Shown here: piece by piece, positions 11,113 to 22,818 of the stretch
How positions within the stretch are numbered: position 1 is the first letter of the stretch
How the letters are laid out: every line of letters begins with the position of its first letter
DNA from: a virus
Length of the DNA: 64,000 bases
Strand: one strand, 5' to 3'
IMG/VR virus record: IMGVR_UViG_3300021962_000061
Coordinates: 25,598 to 89,597 of that record
Notes under the pieces: generated by a model
What the model was told of the DNA's origin: nothing
The model's input: only the letters and a program-made list of their open reading frames with translations
Databases searched by the model: none
Translations under genes and position numbers: made by a program

Positions 11113-13176
11113 TTAGAACGTAATTACAAGTCTGACTTGTTCGTTTGTAGTATTTGATCTTTGAATTGGTAAAACATTTTGTATGTACAAAATTTCACCG
11201 GAATATAGTTTAGCATCAGGAATTGTTGTTATATAGGTATTACCAATCACCTTAGAGTATTTAGCTCCCGAAGCAGCAATGGTTGGTGTAGCTGCATCCC
11301 CTACAACATAGCCAACACCTGTTATTAATGTGTCGTTGACAAATGTATTAGCACTGCTTATACCACGAGTTTGATCCTTATCCAGTCCTGTTAATACAAT
11401 AGTTGAACTGTTGGAAAATGCTACTTTAGCCATTATCTGGGACCCGCCCCCAGAATTATTAGATCCAACCACATATTCACCTGGAATTAATGACTGAGTT
11501 GCGTCTTGCGTTGCTGTTACTGCTACTGTTTGGTTAAAGAATGATCCTGAAAATCTTGGTCTAATTGTTAAAGCTTCAGCTACAACAGTACGTGAGAACG
11601 GAGATTTAATCTTCAAACTTGTATCACTAACAACTTCAGTTACTTCTTTTTCTTCGTCCAAATAAACAATATAATCGCCAACGTTTACCTGGGCTGTAAA
11701 ATATGTTCCTGTTCCAGTAACAGATGTGCTATCAGCAACCAGATCCATTGTCCCTGTTCCTGTTATTGTGTTTGCAGCAAGAGGATTTTTAATGATACCT
11801 ACAGATCTAAACTCAACTTCTGATGAATGCGAAAATGTTGCTGAATTGGAGAACTGCATACCAATACCAATAGATTGGCAGTATAATTCATCCACTACAT
11901 TGAAGCCATGGCCACCAGGTGGTGATATTACTGCTCTTACTACTGCACCACTACCAAATCCTGTGGACGTCTGAATGTTTACATTAGCTTGCTTATAATT
12001 TTTGCCAGGATTTACAATCTCAATTTTTTGAATGCTACCAGTAAATGTAGTGTTTGAAACATTCTGCATTATAGCATAAGCAATACAATTTGATCCCGTT
12101 TTAGAATTAATCTTTACATACGGTGATATAATATATGGCTGATTATTAGCAACATCTCCTGTGTTAAATGGTGTTTTAACTATAGCAAAATTACCACTGC
12201 TGTTAGAAACATATTCACGAATTTCTTTAACGTATGTTTGATTTGTTGTGTCGTTAGTAATAATTAATGCACAGTTTGAAAAGAATCCATTTGTGGATGA
12301 AGAATCGCTGTCAATTCCAATAACAAAATTATTATTGTTTAATGTTGAAATGGTTCCACTATCAGCTGGATAACTTGAGCCATTTGCTTCAACTGCAAAG
12401 TAGAAAATGGATCCTTCAATTGCCGCATTTTTAACATTTGCATTTTGAAAAATGGGAATAAAGTTATCTGTTGCAAATGTTAGAAAATCACTGTTATTAA
12501 TTTCATACAAAAATAACCATCTATAACCATCCGACTCCTTAGGTGGATATCCCAGCTCAATATGTGTAGGTTCAATTGTTGACCTTCCATCATTGTTATT
12601 TTCAATACATTTGTAAACTTTATTTTCTGATGTTAATACGTAAAAGCTTTTTTCAATTAACTGTGTATCTTTATCGTCATATTTTGAATACAACGTGTTT
12701 GCTTGCCAGACAGTTTTTGAAGCCATTGGAATAACATTATTAGCAGTAATTTTTCTGCCAAACATCATTTCTTCATGCATGAATATGTTACTTTCATATT
12801 CATTATCAATTGTATTTGCAGCAGTTGCTTCATCATCTTCATAAGGGGACTGTCGAGCAGCAAACACATAATAATTGTTATTAACTAACTTACCTTTCTT
12901 ATATGTGTTTGCTGAATATACACTACTAAATGATGCTGCTGTGGATAGATGTGTTGCATTAGTAATGCTTATAATTTGACGGGATTCAGGACCAATAAAA
13001 ATACGGTCATTGACCGTAACCTCGTTAACAAAATTTGTACCAACCCCAACCACAGTTGTGGATGTGGTATTTACGGTAATTGTACCTGATAAGTTAGCAC
13101 TTAAAGTATTAGCAATAGAATCTATAAATGCGTCAACTATATTGGACTTGAATCTTGTTAACATTCTATTTCCCAA
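11113..13176 (-). CDS. gp8: baseplate wedge protein gp8
   Basis: Y.KYDD...FYVLT.E.KVYKCI.NN....S..EPT, DGYRWLFLY, ISPPGGHG, YSGEILY; alternative ATG start at 13164. Confidence 0.85.
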   Translation of the reverse strand: MGNRMLTRFKSNIVDAFIDSIANTLSANLSGTITVNTTSTTVVGVGTNFVNEVTVNDRIFIGPESRQIISITNATHLSTAASFSSVYSANTYKKGKLVNNNYYVFAARQSPYEDDEATAANTIDNEYESNIFMHEEMMFGRKITANNVIPMASKTVWQANTLYSKYDDKDTQLIEKSFYVLTSENKVYKCIENNNDGRSTIEPTHIELGYPPKESDGYRWLFLYEINNSDFLTFATDNFIPIFQNANVKNAAIEGSIFYFAVEANGSSYPADSGTISTLNNNNFVIGIDSDSSSTNGFFSNCALIITNDTTNQTYVKEIREYVSNSSGNFAIVKTPFNTGDVANNQPYIISPYVKINSKTGSNCIAYAIMQNVSNTTFTGSIQKIEIVNPGKNYKQANVNIQTSTGFGSGAVVRAVISPPGGHGFNVVDELYCQSIGIGMQFSNSATFSHSSEVEFRSVGIIKNPLAANTITGTGTMDLVADSTSVTGTGTYFTAQVNVGDYIVYLDEEKEVTEVVSDTSLKIKSPFSRTVVAEALTIRPRFSGSFFNQTVAVTATQDATQSLIPGEYVVGSNNSGGGSQIMAKVAFSNSSTIVLTGLDKDQTRGISSANTFVNDTLITGVGYVVGDAATPTIAASGAKYSKVIGNTYITTIPDAKLYSGEILYIQNVLPIQRSNTTNEQVRLVITF

Positions 13177-13185
13177 ACCTTACTT

Positions 13186-16100
13186 TTAATTATTTATATA
13201 AACGGTATCATAATTTGTTTGGATAGCCGTTTCATATGCAGTTGTAGTTGTTTTGTCAGTTACTATGCTTGTAGCTGTTGTAACAGTTGTATCAAGATCA
13301 GTATCTTTATATACTGTATCAAATGTAGTAATAACTTCTGTTGTTCTTGTGGTATCTCTTACGTATTCAAACGTCTGTGTATTAGTTAGAATATTTGTTG
13401 CTCGACTGGTTAATTTACTACCTGTTAAAAATACAGTTGTAAGTTCAACGTCTGTTAAAGTATCAAACTCGGTAATTCTATCCTTATAATCAATAACAGT
13501 AGTCGTAGATTTTGATGTTAACTGTTGTGTTTGGCCAGAAGCTGTATTATACGTTGTAGATGTTAAAAACGAGGTTGATGTCTGTGTCGATACAGCAGAA
13601 AGAGTGGATTTTGATGTAGCAGTTGACTTTGTAGTTAGCAAAGCGGAAACAGTAGTTGAAGATGTTTCAAATGCTGTTGATGTGATTGATGTAATTGTAC
13701 TTGTTGTCTTTGATGTAGCTGTTTGGAATTGTGTAATCAGTATAGAATCAGTCACTTTGGCTGTGTCAGTTAAAAATGCCGTTGTTGTAGTTGTTGAAGT
13801 ATATGTGTCTCTTGTGGTATTAAATGTTGTTGATCCAAAAGGCGTTGTTAAAAATACTGTATCATAATCTGTTGAAGTTGTCTTACCACCCTCATAGCGA
13901 GTGAATGCAGTAGTGGTTGATTTTGATGTGGATGTTGTTACATCTGTGTCAAGTGCTGTGTCTTTATAAACCGTATCAAATGTAGTTGTAGTAGCTGCAG
14001 AAGATTGGGTAATAGCAAACGTTGTATCAAATGTAGTGGACGTTGATAATGTTGTGTCATACCCAGTTGTTGTGTTGAATGTTGTTAATGTGTTTTTAAC
14101 AGTGGATGTGGTAACATCTGTATCCAGCGAAGTATCTTTATAGGTTGTTGAACCTGTGGTGCTTGTTAGCTTGGATGTTGCTGTACTCTTTGTTGTACCA
14201 AATGTAGTCAGTGTATTTCTAGAAGTGGACAATGTTGTATTTGTATATGTACTTCTTGCAGTTTCAAATGCAGTAGAATATGCTGAAAGATACTGAGTGG
14301 TTGTATTAAATGTAGTATCATAAACAGTATTGTATACTGTTAATGTTCCTACTGTGGTGGCTGTATCCTTTGATGTTTGGCCAGGGTTTGTATTAATAAC
14401 TGTATTGAATGATGTGGTTGTAGTACTAGATGTAAAGAACCCACTTGAAGTGACATAAGTTGTGTTTGTTGTCTTAGATGTACTAATTGTGGTATCAACA
14501 AATGTTCCAGCCCCAGAGTTTGTTTGATATGAAGTGTTATACGAAGTTGTTGTTCCAATTGTAGTTAAATACACTGTACCAATAACAGTCTCAAAAACTG
14601 TGGTTGTATCATAATCACCTGACATTGGATATAGTGTATCAGTTATAATGTCAGTAGATCTTGTTGTTGCCTTTGATGTTACGCTTGACGTTATTGTAAT
14701 TGTGCCCTTAGATGTAAGACCCAGGGATGTAGCAGTTGTTTTGGATGTAGAAGTTGTAACATCTGTTTCAAGAGCAGTATCTCTAAACAGTGTTAAGAAA
14801 GTTGTAGCTGTACTTGAGGTTGTTATATAAGATGTTGTTGTTTGATTGCCTGTATCATAACCAGTATCAAATGCAGTTGATGTATTTACAGATGTCGAAA
14901 ACACAGTATCAAATGTTGATGTAGTTGATTTGGTTGTTGCATAATTTGTAGCGTACGCAGTTGCAGTTGTCTTAGCTGTATCAATATTAGTATCGTAGGT
15001 TGTAGAAGATGTAATTACTGTACTTGATAATGTGTCAAATGCTGTTGTTGTATTTTTAGAGGTAATAACATCTGTTTCAATACTTGTTATATAATCAGTA
15101 TCATATACTGTAGATGTTGACTTAGATGTTATGGATGATGTTGAAGTATTACGGGCTGTATTGTATGCAGTTGCAAATTCTGTAGAAGAGTCATACACAG
15201 TTGTAATTTCTGTACCTCTTCTTGTATCGTATGTGGTATTAATAACTGTACTTGTTGAGTATTCAGTAACGCGAGACACCGTAGCAAAGTTACTTACAAA
15301 TACTGTAGATCTACTGGTTGTTGTTGGCTTGTCAGTTGCTTGTGAAGTATTGAAGTATGTTATCACCTCAGTACCCTTAGACAAAGCTGTTGCTCTAGAT
15401 GTTGATATGGACGTGTCAAATGTTGTTGATGTATCAAATTGTGACACATATCCAGTTGTAGTGCTCTTTGATGTACTGTACTGGGATGCATACTCAGTAT
15501 CTACTACTGTGTTGTAAAGACTTGAAGTCGTTCTGGCAGTGGCCTTCACAAGGTCTGTGTTGCGACTATCACTCAATGTTGTTTCATAAGAAGTTGCAAT
15601 TGATGTTGATGTGTCAATAGTTGTATCTGCAACACTGTCATATGCTGTAGTTGTTGATACGTTTGTTGATAAAGATGTGTTGAACGCAGATGCTGTAGTT
15701 TTTGAGGTAGCAACTAACGTATTATAAGTTTCGTATGTTGTTACAAAAACGCTACTGTAAACTGTGTCGTATACTGAAGTAGTTGCAATTAATGTTGGGT
15801 TTGTAGTAGCAACAACTGTGTCACGCAATGTGTTTCTGTTTTGGAACACAAACTCTGTGTCAGTAACTTTGGATGTTAAAACATTTGTATCTACAGAAGT
15901 TATAATACCAGCAACCGTTTCATATTGCGTTTGATACGTTGAACTGTAAACAGTTTGTGTAGCTAGGATAACATATGTTGTTGTAGTGTTAACATCTGTA
16001 TCCCGTGAGGTTGAGCGGTTTGTTGTACTAGCAAATGTAGTAGCCGTGTTTCTACTTTCATCCACACCGGTATCATAAGTTGTTGTAGTATCAAAAATTG

Positions 16101-18285
16101 ATGTTGTAGATTTACTTGTAGATTTAGTTGTTGCATAACCTGTGTCGTAGGTAGTGTTAAACACTGTTGCAGTAGAAACATTTGTTTGTCTAGTTGTAAA
16201 TCTACCTGTGTTTGTAATCTTTTGTGTGATAAATGTTGTGTCAATAGTTGTATCAAATACAGATGTTGTATTTTTAGATGTAGCAAAAATAGTATCAAAG
16301 ACTGTTGTAACAACACTAGATGTATCATATCCTGTTTGATAAGTTGTATCAAAGGAAGATGTGGTTGATTTGGAAGTTGTCTTAGTAGTGTTAATTGTTG
16401 TATCAGTTAGAATTGCTGTATCAAACGCACTTACAACAGTTGTGTCGGTGCTATACGCTGTATTAAATGTGCTTAAAATAGTTGTGTCAAATGTACTTAC
16501 AGTATCAAATGTGGTAGTTGTATCAAACGTGGATGTAGTATCATAAGCAGTTGTAGTTGCCACAATAGTAGATGTAGCTTTACTTGTAGCAACACTAGTT
16601 GTTTTGGATGTTGCAGTTGCTCTAGATGTTACAATTACCGTGTCATAAGTTGTATTGTAGGTTGTAGTTGTTGTGTACGTTGTGTTAAACAGTACTGTTG
16701 TCTGCGTTGATCTACCTGTTGCTACTGCTGTACTATAAGATGTTGTGTATGTAGTTGTTGTTGATACGGACGTAGCTCTGGATGTTGCAAAAGCAGTTGA
16801 AGTAGCTTTATTTGTAGCTTTTGAAGTTTCAAAAGTTGTTGTTCTTGCTGTATTAAAAAAGAACGATGTGTCTCTAATTGTATTGGGTACCACAGCTGTA
16901 GTACCAAATGTTGTGTTAAAAAAGAACGATGTATCTCTAACAGTGTTATTTAATACTGTTGTTTGTGTAGATTTTGATGTTGCTGTTTGTTTATTTGCTT
17001 CAAATACTGTTACGGTATATGTAATAAGCTCCTCTTGGAGTTCGGGGTCAAAATAAGATGATACGGTTTCTCTAGAAGTAATAAAGGCTGTAACCGTATT
17101 GAAGGTTGATGTTGTATTGAAGAAGAATGTTGTCTGGAATGTAGTTAATAAAGCTGTATTTGTTGCTTTAGATGTATTAAAAAAGAATGTTGTCTGGAAT
17201 GTAGTAAATAAAGCTGAGGTTGTTAAAAATGTAGTTGTTTTAGATGTATTATATACTGTATTAAACACCGTTGATGTTGATGAGGTTGTATCATATACAG
17301 TTGAATAGCTTGAAGTTGTAGCTTTAGAAGTAGCTGCACTGGTGTCAAATATGCTCAAGTATGATGTTGTTGTTGCCTTTAAACTGCTTGTTGCTTTGGT
17401 TGTATCAGTGGATTTAGATGTCGATTTACTAGTAGCAAAACTTGTGTCAAAAGATGTTGTGGTATTGAAAGTAGTTGTATACTCAGAATCATAAGACGTG
17501 GTTGTAGCTACAGCTGTATCTGTGGATTTAGATGTACTTGTAAGCTTAGATGTTTGTGTTGATTTTGAAGTGCTTGTAGATACAGTTGTGCTATAAGACG
17601 TTTCTCTTGATGTACTTTTTGTTGTATCCGTTGAATAAGATGTTTCTCTAGTTGTTTCATAGGCAGTAGTTGTTTGATATGATGTCTCGTAAGTTGTTGT
17701 ATAAGACGTTGTCGTAGCTTGATTTGTACCTAGAGTTGTTGTTACAAGTGTATTAAATGTAGTAGTTGTGTTCTTAGATGTGGACTGGGATGTATCAAGC
17801 GTAGTAGATGTTATCTTTGTTGTAATATAGGCTGTCGATCGTGATGTATTATAAGCTGTTACGGTATCAACAAGGGTTTCATATGCCGTAATGAATATGC
17901 TGGAAGTTGTCTTGGATGTACTCTTTGTCGTTAATACAAAAGTATCAAACGTCGTATTAAATACAGTTGTTGTTGACTTAGATGTAGAAGTAGCTTTGGA
18001 TGTGTCAATATTAGTTACATACGCTGTAGTCGTTGTGGATGATCTGTCTGTATTGTACAGCGTAATGTATGTTGTTTGAGTTATATAAGCTGTTGCAATT
18101 TCTGTTTGTCTTTGCTGTTGTATTTCAAAAGAAGTTTCAGTAGCAGTTCTCGGAATTGCTTTAGTAATTTCAATCTTGGCACCGGAAGCGGGAGCTGTAA
18201 CAAATACAACATTGTTACCAGTAATAGTATAATTAGTACCTAGTACTTGCGTTATGCCATTGACTTTAACAACTATGCTGCTCAT
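13186..18285 (-). CDS. 1699-aa Thr-rich low-complexity virion protein, predicted extended beta-hairpin filament
   Basis: open 5.1-kb frame between gp7 and gp8 with ATGA overlap to gp7; ~4-residue T-periodic repeats (TSKST, TAYDT, TVFNT). Confidence 0.8.
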   Translation of the reverse strand: MSSIVVKVNGITQVLGTNYTITGNNVVFVTAPASGAKIEITKAIPRTATETSFEIQQQRQTEIATAYITQTTYITLYNTDRSSTTTTAYVTNIDTSKATSTSKSTTTVFNTTFDTFVLTTKSTSKTTSSIFITAYETLVDTVTAYNTSRSTAYITTKITSTTLDTSQSTSKNTTTTFNTLVTTTLGTNQATTTSYTTTYETSYQTTTAYETTRETSYSTDTTKSTSRETSYSTTVSTSTSKSTQTSKLTSTSKSTDTAVATTTSYDSEYTTTFNTTTSFDTSFATSKSTSKSTDTTKATSSLKATTTSYLSIFDTSAATSKATTSSYSTVYDTTSSTSTVFNTVYNTSKTTTFLTTSALFTTFQTTFFFNTSKATNTALLTTFQTTFFFNTTSTFNTVTAFITSRETVSSYFDPELQEELITYTVTVFEANKQTATSKSTQTTVLNNTVRDTSFFFNTTFGTTAVVPNTIRDTSFFFNTARTTTFETSKATNKATSTAFATSRATSVSTTTTYTTSYSTAVATGRSTQTTVLFNTTYTTTTTYNTTYDTVIVTSRATATSKTTSVATSKATSTIVATTTAYDTTSTFDTTTTFDTVSTFDTTILSTFNTAYSTDTTVVSAFDTAILTDTTINTTKTTSKSTTSSFDTTYQTGYDTSSVVTTVFDTIFATSKNTTSVFDTTIDTTFITQKITNTGRFTTRQTNVSTATVFNTTYDTGYATTKSTSKSTTSIFDTTTTYDTGVDESRNTATTFASTTNRSTSRDTDVNTTTTYVILATQTVYSSTYQTQYETVAGIITSVDTNVLTSKVTDTEFVFQNRNTLRDTVVATTNPTLIATTSVYDTVYSSVFVTTYETYNTLVATSKTTASAFNTSLSTNVSTTTAYDSVADTTIDTSTSIATSYETTLSDSRNTDLVKATARTTSSLYNTVVDTEYASQYSTSKSTTTGYVSQFDTSTTFDTSISTSRATALSKGTEVITYFNTSQATDKPTTTSRSTVFVSNFATVSRVTEYSTSTVINTTYDTRRGTEITTVYDSSTEFATAYNTARNTSTSSITSKSTSTVYDTDYITSIETDVITSKNTTTAFDTLSSTVITSSTTYDTNIDTAKTTATAYATNYATTKSTTSTFDTVFSTSVNTSTAFDTGYDTGNQTTTSYITTSSTATTFLTLFRDTALETDVTTSTSKTTATSLGLTSKGTITITSSVTSKATTRSTDIITDTLYPMSGDYDTTTVFETVIGTVYLTTIGTTTSYNTSYQTNSGAGTFVDTTISTSKTTNTTYVTSSGFFTSSTTTTSFNTVINTNPGQTSKDTATTVGTLTVYNTVYDTTFNTTTQYLSAYSTAFETARSTYTNTTLSTSRNTLTTFGTTKSTATSKLTSTTGSTTYKDTSLDTDVTTSTVKNTLTTFNTTTGYDTTLSTSTTFDTTFAITQSSAATTTTFDTVYKDTALDTDVTTSTSKSTTTAFTRYEGGKTTSTDYDTVFLTTPFGSTTFNTTRDTYTSTTTTTAFLTDTAKVTDSILITQFQTATSKTTSTITSITSTAFETSSTTVSALLTTKSTATSKSTLSAVSTQTSTSFLTSTTYNTASGQTQQLTSKSTTTVIDYKDRITEFDTLTDVELTTVFLTGSKLTSRATNILTNTQTFEYVRDTTRTTEVITTFDTVYKDTDLDTTVTTATSIVTDKTTTTAYETAIQTNYDTVYINN
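13191..13198 (-). promoter_or_regulatory. T4-type late promoter TATAAATA
   Basis: exact match immediately upstream of gp8. Confidence 0.65.
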
Positions 18286-20243
18286 GCCCCACCAGGAATA
18301 GAGTATGCGTTTGTACTACCATCACCAACAAAACCCCTACCAGAATAGCCTGTTGTTGCTGATGTTACCTCACTAGAAATCAATACACGACCAAACTTTT
18401 CAACACCTGCAGGGTGCCACAACTTTCTTAGTAAGTCACTATACTTGTCAAATACAATAGAGGATCTTACTTCGTATGAAAAATCTTGGTAGTAAAAACT
18501 ATCGTGTATGTACTTATCTGAGTTTAAAAATCCTCTAGTGGATTTAAATCTACCTTCACCTTCACCTTGCTTGAGCACCTCAAGAGTACCTGTACCTTCT
18601 AGTTGGGTGTTTGCCAGTGACACAAGAGTAACAAATTCATTTGGCTCATATCCAAACCCCGAATCAGTAATTTTAACAGCACCAACAGCGTCTGTACCAA
18701 ATCCTGTTAATGCTGTAATTACAGCATTGTTGCCAAGATAACCATTACCACTTTCTCCTCTGCCAGCTTCGTGTTGAACATCAAGCAACTTCAAAGTTGA
18801 TATAATAGTATCTACTGCTTTCACTTGAAGATTAGTGGTATAGCCTGAGCCAGGGTTGACAGTTTTTAGACGTCCAATGGTGCCCACTAAATAGTTTTGA
18901 AATCCTAAAGCATCCTTCAGAAGTGTATCAAAACCAGCTTCAACATTGGATGATAATCCATATCCATTTGCTGTAGGATAAGACAATTGGCCAATTATCA
19001 TATTAGTGACATTGTTAGCTGTACCAATATAAGTTGTTGTTTGCCCGAGAGCTGAAATTTTTAGTGGAGATGTAAATAGGTTGTGCGTGTCTACTAATGT
19101 TTGGATCGCCAAGTTTGCTTCTTCCCCACCGCCGGCTATTTCAGCATCAAGTATAGCCGCCACACCAACACTTGGACTACTTGATGTATTAATAACACTG
19201 ATCACTACAGTGTTTGCGTTTAAGAAACCATTACCACCATTTGTTAGTGATATTGTTACAATACCACCCACAGTATTTGTACTGACGTTTGCTATTGCAT
19301 TAATAGAGCCGTTTGAAAGAATAACAATATCACTGTTGTCATAGCCAGAACCACCCGATGTTATGATTACATTTGTTACAGGACCTGTAATTTGAAATTC
19401 TGTGTTATCAATAGTATAGCCGCTACCACCATCAAGTAATCTAAAACTTACTGTGCCGTCTCTTTCTTCTAATTGTGTAACAACTGCTTTACACCCCTTG
19501 CCCTTACCTCTAACTTCTAGCTCATCTCCTAGATTAAAACCAAACCCTGTTTGGATTCCTGTTATTGATGTGGCTGAACCAATGATTTGAGGGGAGTTGA
19601 TAGCACTAACAGCGGGTTCCGTGCCTTCAGGTAAGCGGGCTTGGTCAATTAAAACGGTTTCATCGTTTCGGAAGTTTCCTTCAACATCTGTCAAATAAAA
19701 TATGTTAATGTTTTTATTATTAATATATTTTGTTTGAAATCTTTCTACATAAGCTCTTGCACCAGATACACGCCCAACAATAAACTCACCAACAAATAAT
19801 GAATTGAAAGGCTTATAGGATACTTCAAGGTAGATGTTCTGCCCCCATTCACCATCAGAAAGTCTGAAGACATCGTCACCTGGTTTGTATACACTTATAC
19901 TATCACCAAATAACAATTGAAATAATAGTTTTAAACCACGCTCGGTTCCCTTTGAACCATATACTTCTTTAATATGTTTCTGGAGTAGCTGCTTATCGCC
20001 TGAAATATCTTCAGGAATTGGAAACATGTATTTTTTCTTAAACTCATTAATAAAGACATCAATTGTTTTATCAATATCTCTATATTCCAACAATCTTCTT
20101 GAATCATAAAGAATTTGATCTTGAGATTCTAACCACTCGAAGTATGCTTTAACAAAAGCAATAAACAACGGACCTTCATCTCTGTAGATAGAAGGAAATT
20201 GATCGGCAATAAATGGAGAAATGAATCTTTCTATTTGCTTCAT
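18282..20243 (-). CDS. gp7: baseplate wedge initiator gp7-like
   Basis: QFP..YR.E.PLF.AF.KAYFEWLE, Y.SKGTE..LKLLF.LLF, IHDSFYYQDFSYEVRS, HPAG...FG; lies between gp6 and gp8. Confidence 0.8.
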   Translation of the reverse strand: MKQIERFISPFIADQFPSIYRDEGPLFIAFVKAYFEWLESQDQILYDSRRLLEYRDIDKTIDVFINEFKKKYMFPIPEDISGDKQLLQKHIKEVYGSKGTERGLKLLFQLLFGDSISVYKPGDDVFRLSDGEWGQNIYLEVSYKPFNSLFVGEFIVGRVSGARAYVERFQTKYINNKNINIFYLTDVEGNFRNDETVLIDQARLPEGTEPAVSAINSPQIIGSATSITGIQTGFGFNLGDELEVRGKGKGCKAVVTQLEERDGTVSFRLLDGGSGYTIDNTEFQITGPVTNVIITSGGSGYDNSDIVILSNGSINAIANVSTNTVGGIVTISLTNGGNGFLNANTVVISVINTSSSPSVGVAAILDAEIAGGGEEANLAIQTLVDTHNLFTSPLKISALGQTTTYIGTANNVTNMIIGQLSYPTANGYGLSSNVEAGFDTLLKDALGFQNYLVGTIGRLKTVNPGSGYTTNLQVKAVDTIISTLKLLDVQHEAGRGESGNGYLGNNAVITALTGFGTDAVGAVKITDSGFGYEPNEFVTLVSLANTQLEGTGTLEVLKQGEGEGRFKSTRGFLNSDKYIHDSFYYQDFSYEVRSSIVFDKYSDLLRKLWHPAGVEKFGRVLISSEVTSATTGYSGRGFVGDGSTNAYSIPGGA

Positions 20244-22483: not shown

Positions 22484-22491
22484 TATTTATA
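22484..22491 (-). promoter_or_regulatory. T4-type late promoter TATAAATA
   Basis: exact match in the intergenic gap upstream of gp25. Confidence 0.7.
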
Positions 22492-22818
22492 TTAACCATT
22501 TGCAAAGACATTATGTGAACCCTCAGCAATGACATTTTGTTCTGGAGTGCCAGTACCATAATGATCATCTTGTCTACCAATTTGCTTGTTGCCAATAAAG
22601 ACATTTGGAGAGTATTTGTCTAAAACAGATTGATCCACTTCACACCCCTTTCTTTTATGTTCTGCTATTTTATTGCCCTTGACGGGTATTAATTTAAAAT
22701 TAGCATATACATAACTGCTGTTAACCTCTCCAACTGCTGTGTTGACAGGGTTTCCACACTGATGGCCTTGACCAGTAGGTGATTGTACTCTATCTCCCTC
22801 TCTTGCTACAGCTGGCAT
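22492..22818 (-). CDS. PAAR-like spike tip protein (gp5.4-like)
   Basis: MPAVAREGD start, His/Cys ligands, EGSHNVFANG end; directly after gp5. Confidence 0.8.
   Translation of the reverse strand: MPAVAREGDRVQSPTGQGHQCGNPVNTAVGEVNSSYVYANFKLIPVKGNKIAEHKRKGCEVDQSVLDKYSPNVFIGNKQIGRQDDHYGTGTPEQNVIAEGSHNVFANG

What the first reader, a model, noticed from the sequence alone, without database searches (positions are those of the whole stretch)
16003..18072. Mirror-complementary 'protein palindrome': predicted ~340-residue-per-arm antiparallel beta-hairpin zipped by K/R-F/Y pairs
Seen: residues ~72-411 and ~423-761 of the 1699-aa Thr-rich protein mirror each other around the single non-repetitive turn FDPELQEEL (aa 412-420; DPELQE at nt 17032-17049). 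Pairing residue i with j where i+j=833-834, basic residues face aromatics: R405-F428, F401-K432, F395-K438, F383-R450, K373-F460, K349-F485, Y345-K489, Y331-R503, K321-Y513, K297-Y537, F279-R555, K253-Y581 ... K125-F709, F113-K721, K103-F731, K97-Y737, Y89-R745, Y73-R761. By hand I count about 41 of 45 K/R in the arms opposite F/Y, with only a single 1-residue register shift. The irregular 4/6-residue spacing is also mirrored. Established: Thr has high beta propensity and cross-strand cation-pi pairs stabilise hairpins. Inference: a two-stranded ribbon of ~110 nm (3.3 A per residue) whose register is set by a base-pairing-like code. The gene sits between gp7 and gp8, so this could be an undescribed baseplate antenna or fibre (adsorption, drag, or surface binding by Thr ladders). 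I do not know a described phage fibre of this kind.
Basis: partly seen in the sequence, partly recalled or inferred. Interest (0 to 1): 0.92.

Follow-up and report, generated by a model that had tools for sequence, protein, structure and literature searches.

The report
Mirror-coded fold-back fibre beside gp7
A threonine-rich phage baseplate protein has two 336-residue stretches that match residue for residue when one is read backwards, so the chain very probably folds back on itself into an extremely long, thin beta ribbon, a fibre design I found in no paper or database.

Summary
In the 1699-aa ORF (13186-18285, minus strand), 41 of 45 Lys/Arg in aa 72-761 face Phe/Tyr (36 at i+j=834, 5 at 833). 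The best of 2000 shuffles in each of five nulls reached at most 26, against 36 observed. Thr faces Thr, and no DNA inverted repeat explains the pattern.

The code is conserved. It occurs in 13 of 14 fused gp7-like homologues, including Stenotrophomonas phage DLP_6, and in four closer relatives with arms of 454-555 residues. It also occurs in a second 662-aa protein of the same contig. Arm lengths change in step, including a clean 54+54-residue mirrored insertion. Five pair columns show K/R-F/Y swaps. One relative carries a Pfam glycine-rich domain exactly at the turn.

Best reading: a fold-back antiparallel beta ribbon, at most about 110 nm long, anchored to gp7 through a domain split across the conserved ATGA gene junction, with its distal tip at the turn.

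I found no literature, Pfam, PHROG or PDB precedent. This scan's earlier AI notes report the same code on other phage DNA.

The parts
18282..20243 (-). gp7-like baseplate wedge protein (653 aa). Its last residues supply the first part of a small beta module that the next gene completes.
   Evidence: phrog_17744, E 6e-137. PF23786, 33 bits. Aligns to aa 1-518 of the fused DLP_6 protein P0004. The tail matches module-HMM positions 5-17.
18079..18285 (-). N-terminal adaptor of the Thr-rich protein (aa 1-69). aa 2-40 form the second part of the split module. The start codon overlaps the gp7 stop (ATGA).
   Evidence: aa 2-40 match HMM positions 25-63 at 42.4 bits. The same module repeats in collagen-like phage fibre proteins P0018-P0022. 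The junction is conserved in 10 of 10 loci.
17071..18078 (-). Hairpin 1, outgoing arm (aa 70-405)
   Evidence: Mirror alignment score 173.7 with one gap. 36+5 of 45 K/R face F/Y.
17005..17070 (-). Hairpin 1 tip (aa 406-427), containing the non-repetitive FDPELQEEL turn
   Evidence: This is the loop left unpaired by the mirror alignment. Relatives carry 25- to 210-residue inserts at this point.
15994..17004 (-). Hairpin 1, returning arm (aa 428-764)
15721..15993 (-). Linker between the two hairpins (aa 765-855); no mirror signal
   Evidence: Lies outside the arms found.
14851..15720 (-). Hairpin 2. Arms aa 856-998 and 1003-1145, ungapped, i+j=2001, four-residue turn NFAT.
   Evidence: Score 68.1 against at most 21.4 in 12 phase-2 shuffles. 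The same 143-144-residue arms occur in all 4 relatives.
13186..14850 (-). C-terminal Thr-rich region (aa 1146-1699 plus stop), architecture unresolved. It holds four copies of a Y-[KR]-D-T-x-L-[DE]-T-[DT]-V-T-T motif and one weak mirror (1250-1300/1349-1400).
   Evidence: Motif copies. DNA repeat family D11. The weak mirror scores 25.4, close to the shuffle maximum of 21.4.
11113..13176 (-). gp8-like baseplate wedge protein (687 aa), downstream neighbour
   Evidence: phrog_438, E 8e-72. Same gene order in DLP_6.

Best explanation
The ORF encodes a baseplate-attached fibre whose shaft is the chain folded back on itself. Residues 70-405 run outward, the chain turns at aa 406-427, and residues 428-764 run back antiparallel in exact register. 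I infer that this gives a two-stranded beta ribbon of at most about 110 nm (336 residues x about 3.3 A, a textbook rise).

A side-chain code sets the register on one face. Thr faces Thr, and every 4 or 6 residues an aromatic (F/Y) faces a basic (K/R) or, less often, an aliphatic residue. Basic never faces basic. The other face pairs small polar residues (D/N with S). The ribbon is charge-neutral.

A second, shorter hairpin (143 residues per arm, about 47 nm) follows. The protein is probably fixed to gp7 by completing a small beta module whose first part is the C-terminal tail of gp7, in a manner like strand complementation. The turn is the distal tip and is the place where relatives display loops or a glycine-rich domain, so the likely role is long-range contact with the host surface.

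Shown: the mirror code, its conservation, the paired indels, the swaps, the gene context, the split junction and the tip insertions. Inferred: beta conformation, pairing within one chain, length, attachment mode and function.
For: 1. Mirror signal. 41 of 45 K/R face F/Y, and the signal lies far above five shuffle nulls. Thr-Thr pairs are enriched 2-fold, F-R 10-fold and K-Y 10-fold in the training hairpins.

2. Beta-type periodicity. Period 2.0 dominates, at 31.6x mean power for K/R/F/Y/W. 109 of 122 key residues share parity within their arm. K+R is 45 and D+E is 47.

3. Not a nucleic-acid effect. Arm 1 against the reverse complement of arm 2 is 28.5% identical, against 25.6+-1.6% for shuffles. 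Only 7 short inverted DNA repeats exist and none is centred on the turn.

4. Independent recurrence.
- 13 of 14 fused gp7 homologues have one dominant antidiagonal (24-41 pairs against 15-21 for the runner-up). P0003 has none.
- In 15 proteins, K/R faces an aromatic residue in 72-97% of cases, and K/R faces K/R 0 times.
- The 662-aa paralogue on the same contig scores 38 of 39.

5. Arms change length together.
- Arm lengths are 336/337 (window), 454/454, 551/555, 528/526 and 491/491.
- Fused homologues show paired indels of 10+10, 24 against 20+4, and 10+4 against 14.
- The conserved Pro anchors are exact mirror partners in 8 of the 8 proteins my pattern caught, out of 13.
- L014 carries a 54-residue insertion in each arm at mirrored places, relative both to L005 (85% identical) and to L012 (80%).

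6. Covariation. 5 of 271 pair columns hold both K/R-F/Y and F/Y-K/R. Complementary cells number 374, against 337.8+-4.0 in 500 column permutations (max 351).

7. Tip. Insertions of 25, 51, 53 and 210 residues sit exactly at the turn. The 210-residue insert matches PF21722 Gly_rich_2 at 30.3 bits (cut-off 24.3) over profile positions 4-223 of 226. An inserted domain needs its two ends adjacent, as they would be at a hairpin tip.

8. Context. The gene order is gp5, PAAR, gp25, gp6, gp7-like, this ORF, gp8-like, and the same order holds in DLP_6, where the Thr-rich part is fused to gp7.

9. Junction. ...IPGGA-stop overlapping ATG is kept in 10 of 10 loci. The gp7 tail matches module-HMM positions 5-17 and P0001 aa 2-40 match positions 25-63. 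Contigs from 4 runs in 4 studies show no indel there.
Against: - No three-dimensional evidence.
- The ESM Atlas model of the 662-aa paralogue is unfolded-looking (pLDDT 0.23, pTM 0.13). That may mean disorder, or only that the predictor fails on this design.
- To my knowledge (recalled), a free two-stranded ribbon of more than 300 residues per strand has no solved precedent, so burial in an oligomer cannot be excluded.
- Between the window protein and its 4 closer relatives I found no direct K/R<->F/Y swap, only concerted changes such as K/R-F/Y to T-T and one-sided K/R to aliphatic changes.
- Only 54-62% of the window's pair columns land in the relatives' own register in a blind MAFFT alignment; the rest are off by small even shifts.
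- Near the tip (about aa 355-480, FFFNT motifs) the code is weaker and the register shifts by one.
- The gp7 tail alone matches the module only weakly (3.1 bits).
- No expression or virion data: no RNA run holds the stretch.
Confidence: 0.72

Rival explanations
1. The arms pair as predicted, but the ribbon is not free. Several fold-back chains, or ribbon faces, pack together into a multi-stranded rod. One form would be a trimer forming a six-stranded needle like the T4 gp37 tip; another would be two ribbons packed face to face. The K/R-F/Y/Thr face would then be partly buried.
For: The mirror data fit this reading as well as the free-ribbon reading. Many phage fibres are trimers and the gp37 needle is a fold-back trimer (recalled, not tested). 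The 662-aa paralogue has its own N-terminal domain with three short repeats, which could be an oligomerisation head. A free ribbon of this length has no precedent that I know of.
Against: In the fused homologues the hairpin is part of gp7. gp7 is present once per wedge in T4 (recalled), so chains would be about 60 degrees apart on the baseplate. There is no His (no HxH iron sites) and no Cys in the protein. The charge balance and polar make-up of both faces suit solvent exposure.
Confidence: 0.2
2. The mirror complementarity is used between chains. Two copies pair antiparallel (arm 1 of one with arm 2 of the other) instead of each chain folding back.
For: A self-complementary sequence cannot by itself tell pairing in cis from pairing in trans. 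Earlier AI notes of this scan (e1-6074650, e1-5879904; unchecked by me) describe two-gene versions in which two separate chains carry the complementary arms.
Against: Turn-type, non-repetitive loops sit exactly at the centre: DPELQE, NPG, and the four-residue NFAT of hairpin 2. Domains are inserted exactly at the centre. Pairing in cis is favoured by proximity. A trans dimer would put the two gp7 anchors about twice the arm length apart.
Confidence: 0.05
3. The region is a disordered, perhaps glycosylated, Ser/Thr-rich brush, or a beta-solenoid or antifreeze-like TxT array. The mirror would then be a by-product of repeat composition or of DNA-level symmetry.
For: 34% Thr and low complexity. 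The predictor gives no fold. Earlier first-reader notes mention glycosyltransferase genes on the contig (e1-6125731, e1-6125736; not checked).
Against: Shuffles that keep composition, periodicity, spacing units or the key sites never reach the observed score. No direct-repeat period dominates, and at the best direct offsets the residue classes agree only about half the time. Pro is 0.5%. There is no DNA inverted repeat. Paired indels and swaps have no explanation under disorder or a solenoid.
Confidence: 0.03

Closest known systems
C-terminal Thr-rich extension of the gp7-like 'baseplate wedge subunit protein' of Stenotrophomonas phage vB_SmaS-DLP_6 (AAY80_265, AMQ65900.1; P0004)
   Same: It uses the same alphabet and the same mirror code: 34 of 38 K/R face aromatics, i+j=1949, and the turn is at TNPGLS. 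It sits at the same genome position between gp6 and gp8. BLASTP gives 37-40% identity over Thr-rich stretches.
   Different: It is fused to gp7 behind an extra globular domain. Its arms are about 262 residues from the Pro anchors and it has one hairpin only. The DLP6 paper (PMC5349666; passages seen by term search) lists gp7 only in an identity table and never mentions threonine. The structure has therefore not been described there either.
Needle domain of the T4 long-tail-fibre tip protein gp37 (Bartual et al. 2010; recalled, not read here)
   Same: It is a phage fibre in which the chain runs to the distal tip, reverses and runs back, so the receptor-binding end is at the chain reversal.
   Different: gp37 is an intertwined trimer held by His-x-His iron sites and is about 15 nm long. 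Here there is no His at all, a binary aromatic/basic code, arms 20 times longer, and no sequence or Pfam relation.
Fold-back stalks built from other secondary structures: streptococcal antigen I/II (alpha helix paired with a polyproline helix, domain at the tip) and SMC/Rad50 antiparallel coiled-coil arms (recalled)
   Same: The principle is the same. One chain goes out and comes back, the two halves are complementary, and a domain or loop is displayed at the far end tens of nm away.
   Different: Those are helical. Here the period-2 pattern and the beta-branched composition point to beta strands.
Single-layer beta-sheet rods (Borrelia OspA central sheet, staphylococcal SasG G5-E repeats) and the two-stranded beta-ribbon stalk-and-knob of bovine ultralong CDR-H3 antibodies (recalled)
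   Same: They are solvent-exposed beta sheets or ribbons without a hydrophobic core, stabilised by cross-strand side-chain pairs. The antibody stalk displays a knob domain at its tip, like the PF21722 insert in relative L014.
   Different: Those ribbons are 10-20 residues per strand or are built of repeated domains. None has a register code running over hundreds of residues.
Designed beta-hairpin peptides with cross-strand aromatic/Lys-Arg (cation-pi) pairs (recalled; the search listing gave only general peptide-design reviews)
   Same: They use the same pair chemistry to stabilise a hairpin.
   Different: They are 12-20-residue peptides, not natural fibres.

Membership tests
Antiparallel two-stranded beta hairpin/ribbon (structural class) | Residue i is complementary to residue (constant - i) over the whole length of both arms | tested here: met
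   36+5 of 45 K/R face F/Y, Thr faces Thr, and the mirror alignment needs one gap. The score is above all shuffles.
Antiparallel two-stranded beta hairpin/ribbon (structural class) | Two-residue alternation of side-chain type, as in beta strands | tested here: met
   The period-2.0 peak is 31.6x mean power, and 109 of 122 key residues keep parity.
Antiparallel two-stranded beta hairpin/ribbon (structural class) | Indels in one arm are matched by indels in the other arm in relatives | tested here: met
   Arm pairs of 336/337, 454/454, 551/555, 528/526 and 491/491. A 54+54 mirrored insertion. Paired indels of 10+10, 24 against 20+4, and 14 against 14 in the fused set.
Antiparallel two-stranded beta hairpin/ribbon (structural class) | Compensatory exchange of the two partners (K/R-F/Y to F/Y-K/R) | tested here: met
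   5 of 271 pair columns in 13 fused homologues, with 0 K/R-K/R cells. None was seen among the window protein and its 4 closer relatives, where only concerted or one-sided changes occur.
Antiparallel two-stranded beta hairpin/ribbon (structural class) | Backbone geometry seen in a model or a structure | not testable with these tools
PDB sequence searches gave 0 hits. The Atlas model has pLDDT 0.23.
gp7-type baseplate wedge protein (Pfam PF23786) | Match to the family profile | tested here: not met
   P0001 has 0 Pfam families at E<=1 and 0 PHROGs. The upstream neighbour matches (33 bits). P0001 corresponds to the extension that relatives fuse to gp7.
T4 gp37-like fold-back needle | His-x-His metal sites along the shaft | tested here: not met
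   The protein contains no His, Cys or Trp (composition). The defining motif itself is recalled.
Mucin-like / PTS disordered Ser-Thr-Pro region | Pro-rich, with no long-range positional order | tested here: not met
   Pro is 9 of 1699 residues. Strict long-range mirror order is present.
Beta-solenoid / antifreeze-type TxT repeat array | One constant direct-repeat period relating successive coils | tested here: not met
   No direct offset dominates. The top offsets (4, 18, 14, 22 ...) have 39-53 coincidences with only about half in the same class, against 36 of 37 complementary in the mirror.
DNA palindrome / inverted repeat | Arm 1 DNA is complementary to arm 2 DNA | tested here: not met
   28.5% identity against 25.6+-1.6% for shuffles. 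Only 7 short inverted pairs of 20-39 nt, none centred at the turn. GC skew is uniform across both arms.
Glycine-rich domain PF21722 (as tip domain) | Profile match above the curated cut-off at the hairpin turn | tested here: not met
   Met only in relative L014 (30.3 bits, cut-off 24.3). The window's own tip is a 22-residue loop.

The most novel reading that the evidence does not exclude
Proteins can carry an RNA-stem-like register code (aromatic opposite basic or aliphatic, Thr opposite Thr). This code specifies ultra-long two-stranded beta 'duplexes' of hundreds of residues. Phages use it as a modular, length-adjustable fibre shaft that grows by mirrored insertions, displays loops or domains at the turn, and is plugged onto the baseplate by a domain split between two genes. 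If earlier notes of this scan hold, the same code also works between separate chains and in several unrelated phage lineages. It would then be a general and designable protein-pairing principle.
Probability: 0.5. Interest if true: 0.95.

Novelty: categorically new. Interest (0 to 1): 0.87.

Why it matters
If the fold-back ribbon is real, it is a fibre architecture outside the known phage repertoire (triple beta-helix, beta-spiral, coiled coil, collagen). It would also be a natural example of a sequence code that fixes the register of two beta strands over more than 300 residues. That bears on three things:
- protein design, as programmable beta 'duplexes' of set length;
- the limits of current structure predictors, which give no fold for it;
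- phage biology, as an unannotated, length-variable appendage on the baseplate of an aquatic T4-like clade that could reach about 100 nm or more and take part in finding the host.

A cultured relative exists (DLP_6), so the idea is directly testable by EM and proteomics.

Tried and rejected
- **Searches with the Thr-rich protein.** Relatives were reached through the gp7 neighbour instead.
- **Other sequence searches.** HMMER against 1.8 billion representatives gave only 10 hits, mostly to the N-terminal module. The word-index search with the 662-aa paralogue found only P0003.
- **Family and structure libraries.** PHROGs and Pfam gave nothing for the Thr-rich protein. PDB sequence searches with P0001 and P0014 gave 0 hits.
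- **ESM Atlas.** Its model of the paralogue is unusable (pLDDT 0.23). All structure rows have TM <= 0.30 and feature hits are <= 0.89, so they are leads only.
- **Rejected readings.** DNA palindrome, solenoid or direct-repeat array, and mucin-like region.
- **The gp7 junction.** I rejected both a sequencing error and a -1 slip in the GGGG run as the origin of the gp7/Thr-rich split. 8 of 9 related loci have no G run there yet keep the same stop/start overlap, and contigs of 4 runs show no indel.
- **Third hairpin.** The mirror at aa 1250-1400 scores 25.4, too close to the shuffle maximum of 21.4 to claim.
- **Late promoter motif.** TATAAATA is not enriched in the window: 9 found, 6.35 expected, and 17 of 100 shuffles reach 9.
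- **Expression.** No RNA holder was listed for the stretch.
- **Literature.** Seven searches returned no paper on such hairpins; I saw the search listings only. I read the abstract and outline of PMC10743442 (tentaclins), which is unrelated. In PMC5349666, PMC5587285 and PMC7029224 I read passages found by term search; none mentions threonine or this extension. Supplements were not opened. Those of the DLP6 paper might hold virion data that I could not see.
Full report
**1. What is there**

The finding lies inside one ORF, window 13186-18285 on the minus strand. It is 1699 aa, 34% Thr and 13% Ser, and has no Cys, His or Trp; Pro is 0.5%.

The window is part of an 89.6-kb IMG/VR virus contig rated 53% complete. 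The nearest named phage, judged by gp6, is Stenotrophomonas phage DLP_6 at 48% identity. Public runs that hold the stretch are marine, estuary and riverine metagenomes.

**2.

All 18 listed pairs are correct. Of 45 K/R in aa 72-761, 36 face F/Y at i+j=834 and 5 at 833. The other 14 sums tested give 0-16. Over the whole protein the 834 antidiagonal has 38 pairs; the next best has 24, although central antidiagonals are twice as long.

I ran five nulls of 2000 shuffles each, always taking the best antidiagonal:

| Null | Maximum |
|---|---|
| Full shuffle | 15 |
| Within phase mod 2 | 21 |
| Within phase mod 4 | 20 |
| Permuted spacing units | 19 |
| Permuted identities on the fixed 125 K/R/F/Y/W sites | 26 (mean 17.9, sd 2.2) |

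The observed value is 36.

The mirror alignment also puts Thr opposite Thr. A gapped mirror alignment gives arms 70-405 and 428-764 with one gap. Of 37 mirror pairs in which both members are key residues, 36 are complementary.

**3. It is a protein-level signal**

Reverse-complementing Thr codons cannot give Thr. In line with this, GC skew is uniform over both arms. Arm 1 DNA is 28.5% identical to the reverse complement of arm 2, against 25.6+-1.6% for shuffles. The only inverted DNA repeats are 7 pairs of 20-39 nt, and none is centred on the turn.

No direct-repeat period dominates, which argues against a solenoid.

Key residues are spaced almost only by even numbers, mostly 4 and 6. 58 of 62 in arm 1 and 51 of 60 in arm 2 share one parity, and the spectrum peaks at period 2.0. 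This is the signature of beta strands with one face carrying the code.

Around aromatics the consensus is T-x-[FY]-[DN]-T. Around basics it is T-S-[KR]-[SA]-T. The D/N after the aromatic faces the S before the basic residue. K+R is 45 and D+E is 47.

**4. The code recurs and evolves as a paired structure**

*(a) Fused gp7 homologues.* A word-index search found 14 proteins of 1075-1416 aa with a gp7-type N-terminal part (PF23786) and a Thr-rich C-terminal part. They include the DLP_6 'baseplate wedge subunit protein'.
- 13 of 14 have one dominant antidiagonal (24-41 pairs against 15-21). P0003 has none.
- In these 13 proteins, K/R faces an aromatic residue in 72-97% of cases and never faces K/R.
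- A conserved Pro at the start of arm 1 is the exact mirror partner of a conserved Pro near the C-terminus in 8 of the 8 proteins my pattern caught, out of 13. The distance between these two Pro residues varies from 496 to 653 residues.
- In a MAFFT alignment made blind to the mirror, the pair columns of P0014 keep the other proteins' own register in 201-262 of 235-271 comparable pairs.
- Indels are paired: 10+10, 24 against 20+4, 10+4 against 14, and about 105 residues at the tip of P0010.
- Five of 271 pair columns contain both K/R-F/Y and F/Y-K/R.
- Complementary cells number 374, against 337.8+-4.0 after permuting within columns (max 351 of 500). Like-with-like cells number 21 (all aromatic-aromatic), against 45.7+-3.5.

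*(b) Closer relatives.* These were found through the gp7 neighbour, which is 66-68% identical over the full length in nine loci (L005-L012, L014).
- The four loci with complete downstream DNA (L005, L006, L012, L014) each have a Thr-rich ORF of 2004-2275 aa between gp7 and gp8. Each has a dominant mirror of 50-55 pairs against 21-25.
- L010 is cut after 460 aa. L007, L008, L009, L011 and L013 end at or before the junction and say nothing.
- L015-L019 share only a 60-residue motif, are not Thr-rich, and show no mirror.
- Mirror alignments give hairpin 1 arms of 454/454, 551/555, 528/526 and 491/491. All start at aa 65, as in the window (aa 70).
- They also give a hairpin 2 with 144-residue ungapped arms in all four.
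- Relative to L005 (85% identical) and to L012 (80%), L014 has one 54-residue insertion in arm 1 at 429. It has a second 54-residue insertion in arm 2, within 3-9 residues of the mirror position. All other indels lie in the tip zone.
- Against the window protein (45-47% identity) a blind alignment keeps the relatives' register in 178-189 of 306-327 pairs. The rest are shifted by small even numbers.
- At in-register columns I saw no direct swap. I did see concerted changes (K/R-F/Y to T-T in 4 cells, T-T to F/Y-K/R in 4 cells), K/R to aliphatic changes, and 0 like-with-like pairs.

*(c) A paralogue.* The same contig, outside the window, encodes a 662-aa protein (L002:1495-3483, minus strand). 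After a 47-residue head, 38 of its 39 K/R face aromatics about i+j=710. The arms run all the way to the C-terminus.

**5. The tip**

The unpaired centre is 22 residues in the window and 25, 51, 53 and 210 residues in the four relatives. The 210-residue insert of L014 matches Pfam PF21722 (Gly_rich_2) at 30.3 bits, above the cut-off of 24.3, over nearly the whole profile. P0010 has about 105 extra residues at its turn.

A place where loops and whole domains are inserted, with both ends returning to adjacent strands, fits the far end of a hairpin. It also suggests that the tip is the business end. That role is inference.

**6. Attachment to gp7**

The gp7-like ORF (653 aa) aligns with aa 1-518 of fused P0004. 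It ends ...GFVGDGSTNAYSIPGGA-stop, and the stop overlaps the ATG of the Thr-rich ORF.

The first 40 residues of the Thr-rich protein match the second part (positions 25-63 of 72) of a small module that repeats in collagen-like phage fibre proteins. The gp7 tail matches positions 5-17 of the same module, weakly on its own (3.1 bits). The two together score 50.6 bits, against 42.4 for the head alone.

The stop/start overlap and both half-motifs are conserved in 10 of 10 loci. 8 of the 9 relatives have no G run at the junction. Contigs from four runs in four studies cross the junction without an indel, one of them differing at 21 of the 646 positions it covers across the junction. X1 and X2 may be the source sample.

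The split is therefore real and conserved. I infer that the gp7 tail completes the module non-covalently, as in strand complementation, and so docks the fibre.

**7. The rest of the protein**

Hairpin 2 (arms 856-998 and 1003-1145, turn NFAT) scores 68.1, against at most 21.4 in 12 shuffles. The last 550 residues keep the same alphabet and hold four copies of a junction-like motif, but they give only marginal mirrors.

**8. Mechanism**

Shown: the two arms behave in sequence, and in evolution, like the two strands of a stem.

Inferred:
- The arms form an antiparallel two-stranded beta ribbon within one chain.
- One face has rungs alternating between Thr-Thr and aromatic-basic (or aromatic-aliphatic); the other face is small and polar.
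- The irregular 4/6 spacing makes any out-of-register pairing place like against like, so the code fixes the register.
- At 3.3 A per residue (textbook value) the upper-bound lengths are about 110 nm for hairpin 1 and about 47 nm for hairpin 2. Supertwisting would shorten both.
- Function is most likely a long flexible baseplate appendage for early contact with the host surface.

Rivals: packing into an oligomeric rod (0.2), pairing in trans (0.05), and disorder, solenoid or artefact (0.03).

**9. What is known**

P0001 has no Pfam, PHROG or PDB relative. Seven full-text searches returned nothing on such hairpins. The DLP6 paper does not mention the feature; I saw passages only.

The closest analogies are recalled, not tested: the fold-back needle of T4 gp37, helical fold-back stalks (antigen I/II, SMC), single-layer beta sheets (OspA, SasG), and the stalk-and-knob of bovine antibodies.

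Earlier AI notes of this scan report the same code in other phage genomes. These include gp7-linked proteins like L006's, T5-like and phiKZ-like phages, and two-gene versions. I list them as leads. They agree with my result but are not independent evidence.

**10. Limits**

There are no expression or virion data. The covariation counts rest on 13 and 5 related sequences and on alignments of repetitive sequence.

Noticed in passing
window 18163-18348 (junction of 18282-20243 and 13186-18285, minus strand): A small beta module is split between two genes. The gp7 tail (...GDGS....IPGGA-stop) carries its first part and the Thr-rich protein's first 40 residues carry the rest. The ATGA overlap is conserved in 10 of 10 loci, and no indel appears in contigs from 4 runs. 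This suggests docking by domain complementation rather than a frameshift.
   Followed up: yes
L002:1495-3483 (-), same contig, about 9.4 kb before the window start: A second Thr-rich protein (662 aa) is one almost perfect mirror hairpin: i+j=710, 38 of 39 K/R face aromatics, and the arms reach the C-terminus. It shares the FFFNT tip motifs with the window protein. The gene upstream of it (232 aa; the next ORF at higher L002 coordinates) is rich in N-x-T/S repeats.
   Followed up: partly
window 14851-15720 (-): Second hairpin in the same protein. It has 143-residue ungapped arms and a four-residue turn. Its length is constant (143-144) in all four relatives, whereas hairpin 1 varies from 336 to 555 residues per arm.
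   Followed up: yes
window 13186-14850 (-): Four copies of a Y-[KR]-D-T-x-L-[DE]-T-[DT]-V-T-T motif lie at aa 1169, 1384, 1442 and 1661 (DNA repeat family D11, 74 nt). Spacings are about 215, 58 and 219 residues. Only marginal mirror signals are found between the copies, so the architecture is unresolved.
   Followed up: partly
L014:5957-6586 (+): A 210-residue glycine-rich domain (Pfam PF21722, 30.3 bits) is inserted exactly at the turn of hairpin 1 in one relative. L006 and L012 have 51-53-residue Gly-rich loops at the same place.
   Followed up: partly
window 22484-22491 (-) and 13191-13198 (-): T4-type late-promoter-like TATAAATA motifs lie just upstream of the gp25-like gene and of the gp8-like gene; the second lies inside the last codons of the Thr-rich ORF. 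8 of the 9 matches in the window are on the minus strand, but the total count is not above chance.
   Followed up: partly
window 22492-22818 (-): A PAAR-motif protein gene (phrog_281) sits between the gp5-like hub/lysozyme gene and the gp25-like gene.
   Followed up: no
window 14001-18000: Strong positive GC skew (+0.26 to +0.35) and negative AT skew are confined to the Thr-rich ORF. They are a by-product of ACN Thr codons on the minus strand, not a replication signal.
   Followed up: partly
L015-L019 (for example L018:3748-13134): Giant proteins of 2895-3128 aa follow a gp6-like gene in other viral contigs. They share only a 60-residue motif with the end of the gp7-like protein (aa 564-628). 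They are not Thr-rich and show no mirror signal.
   Followed up: no
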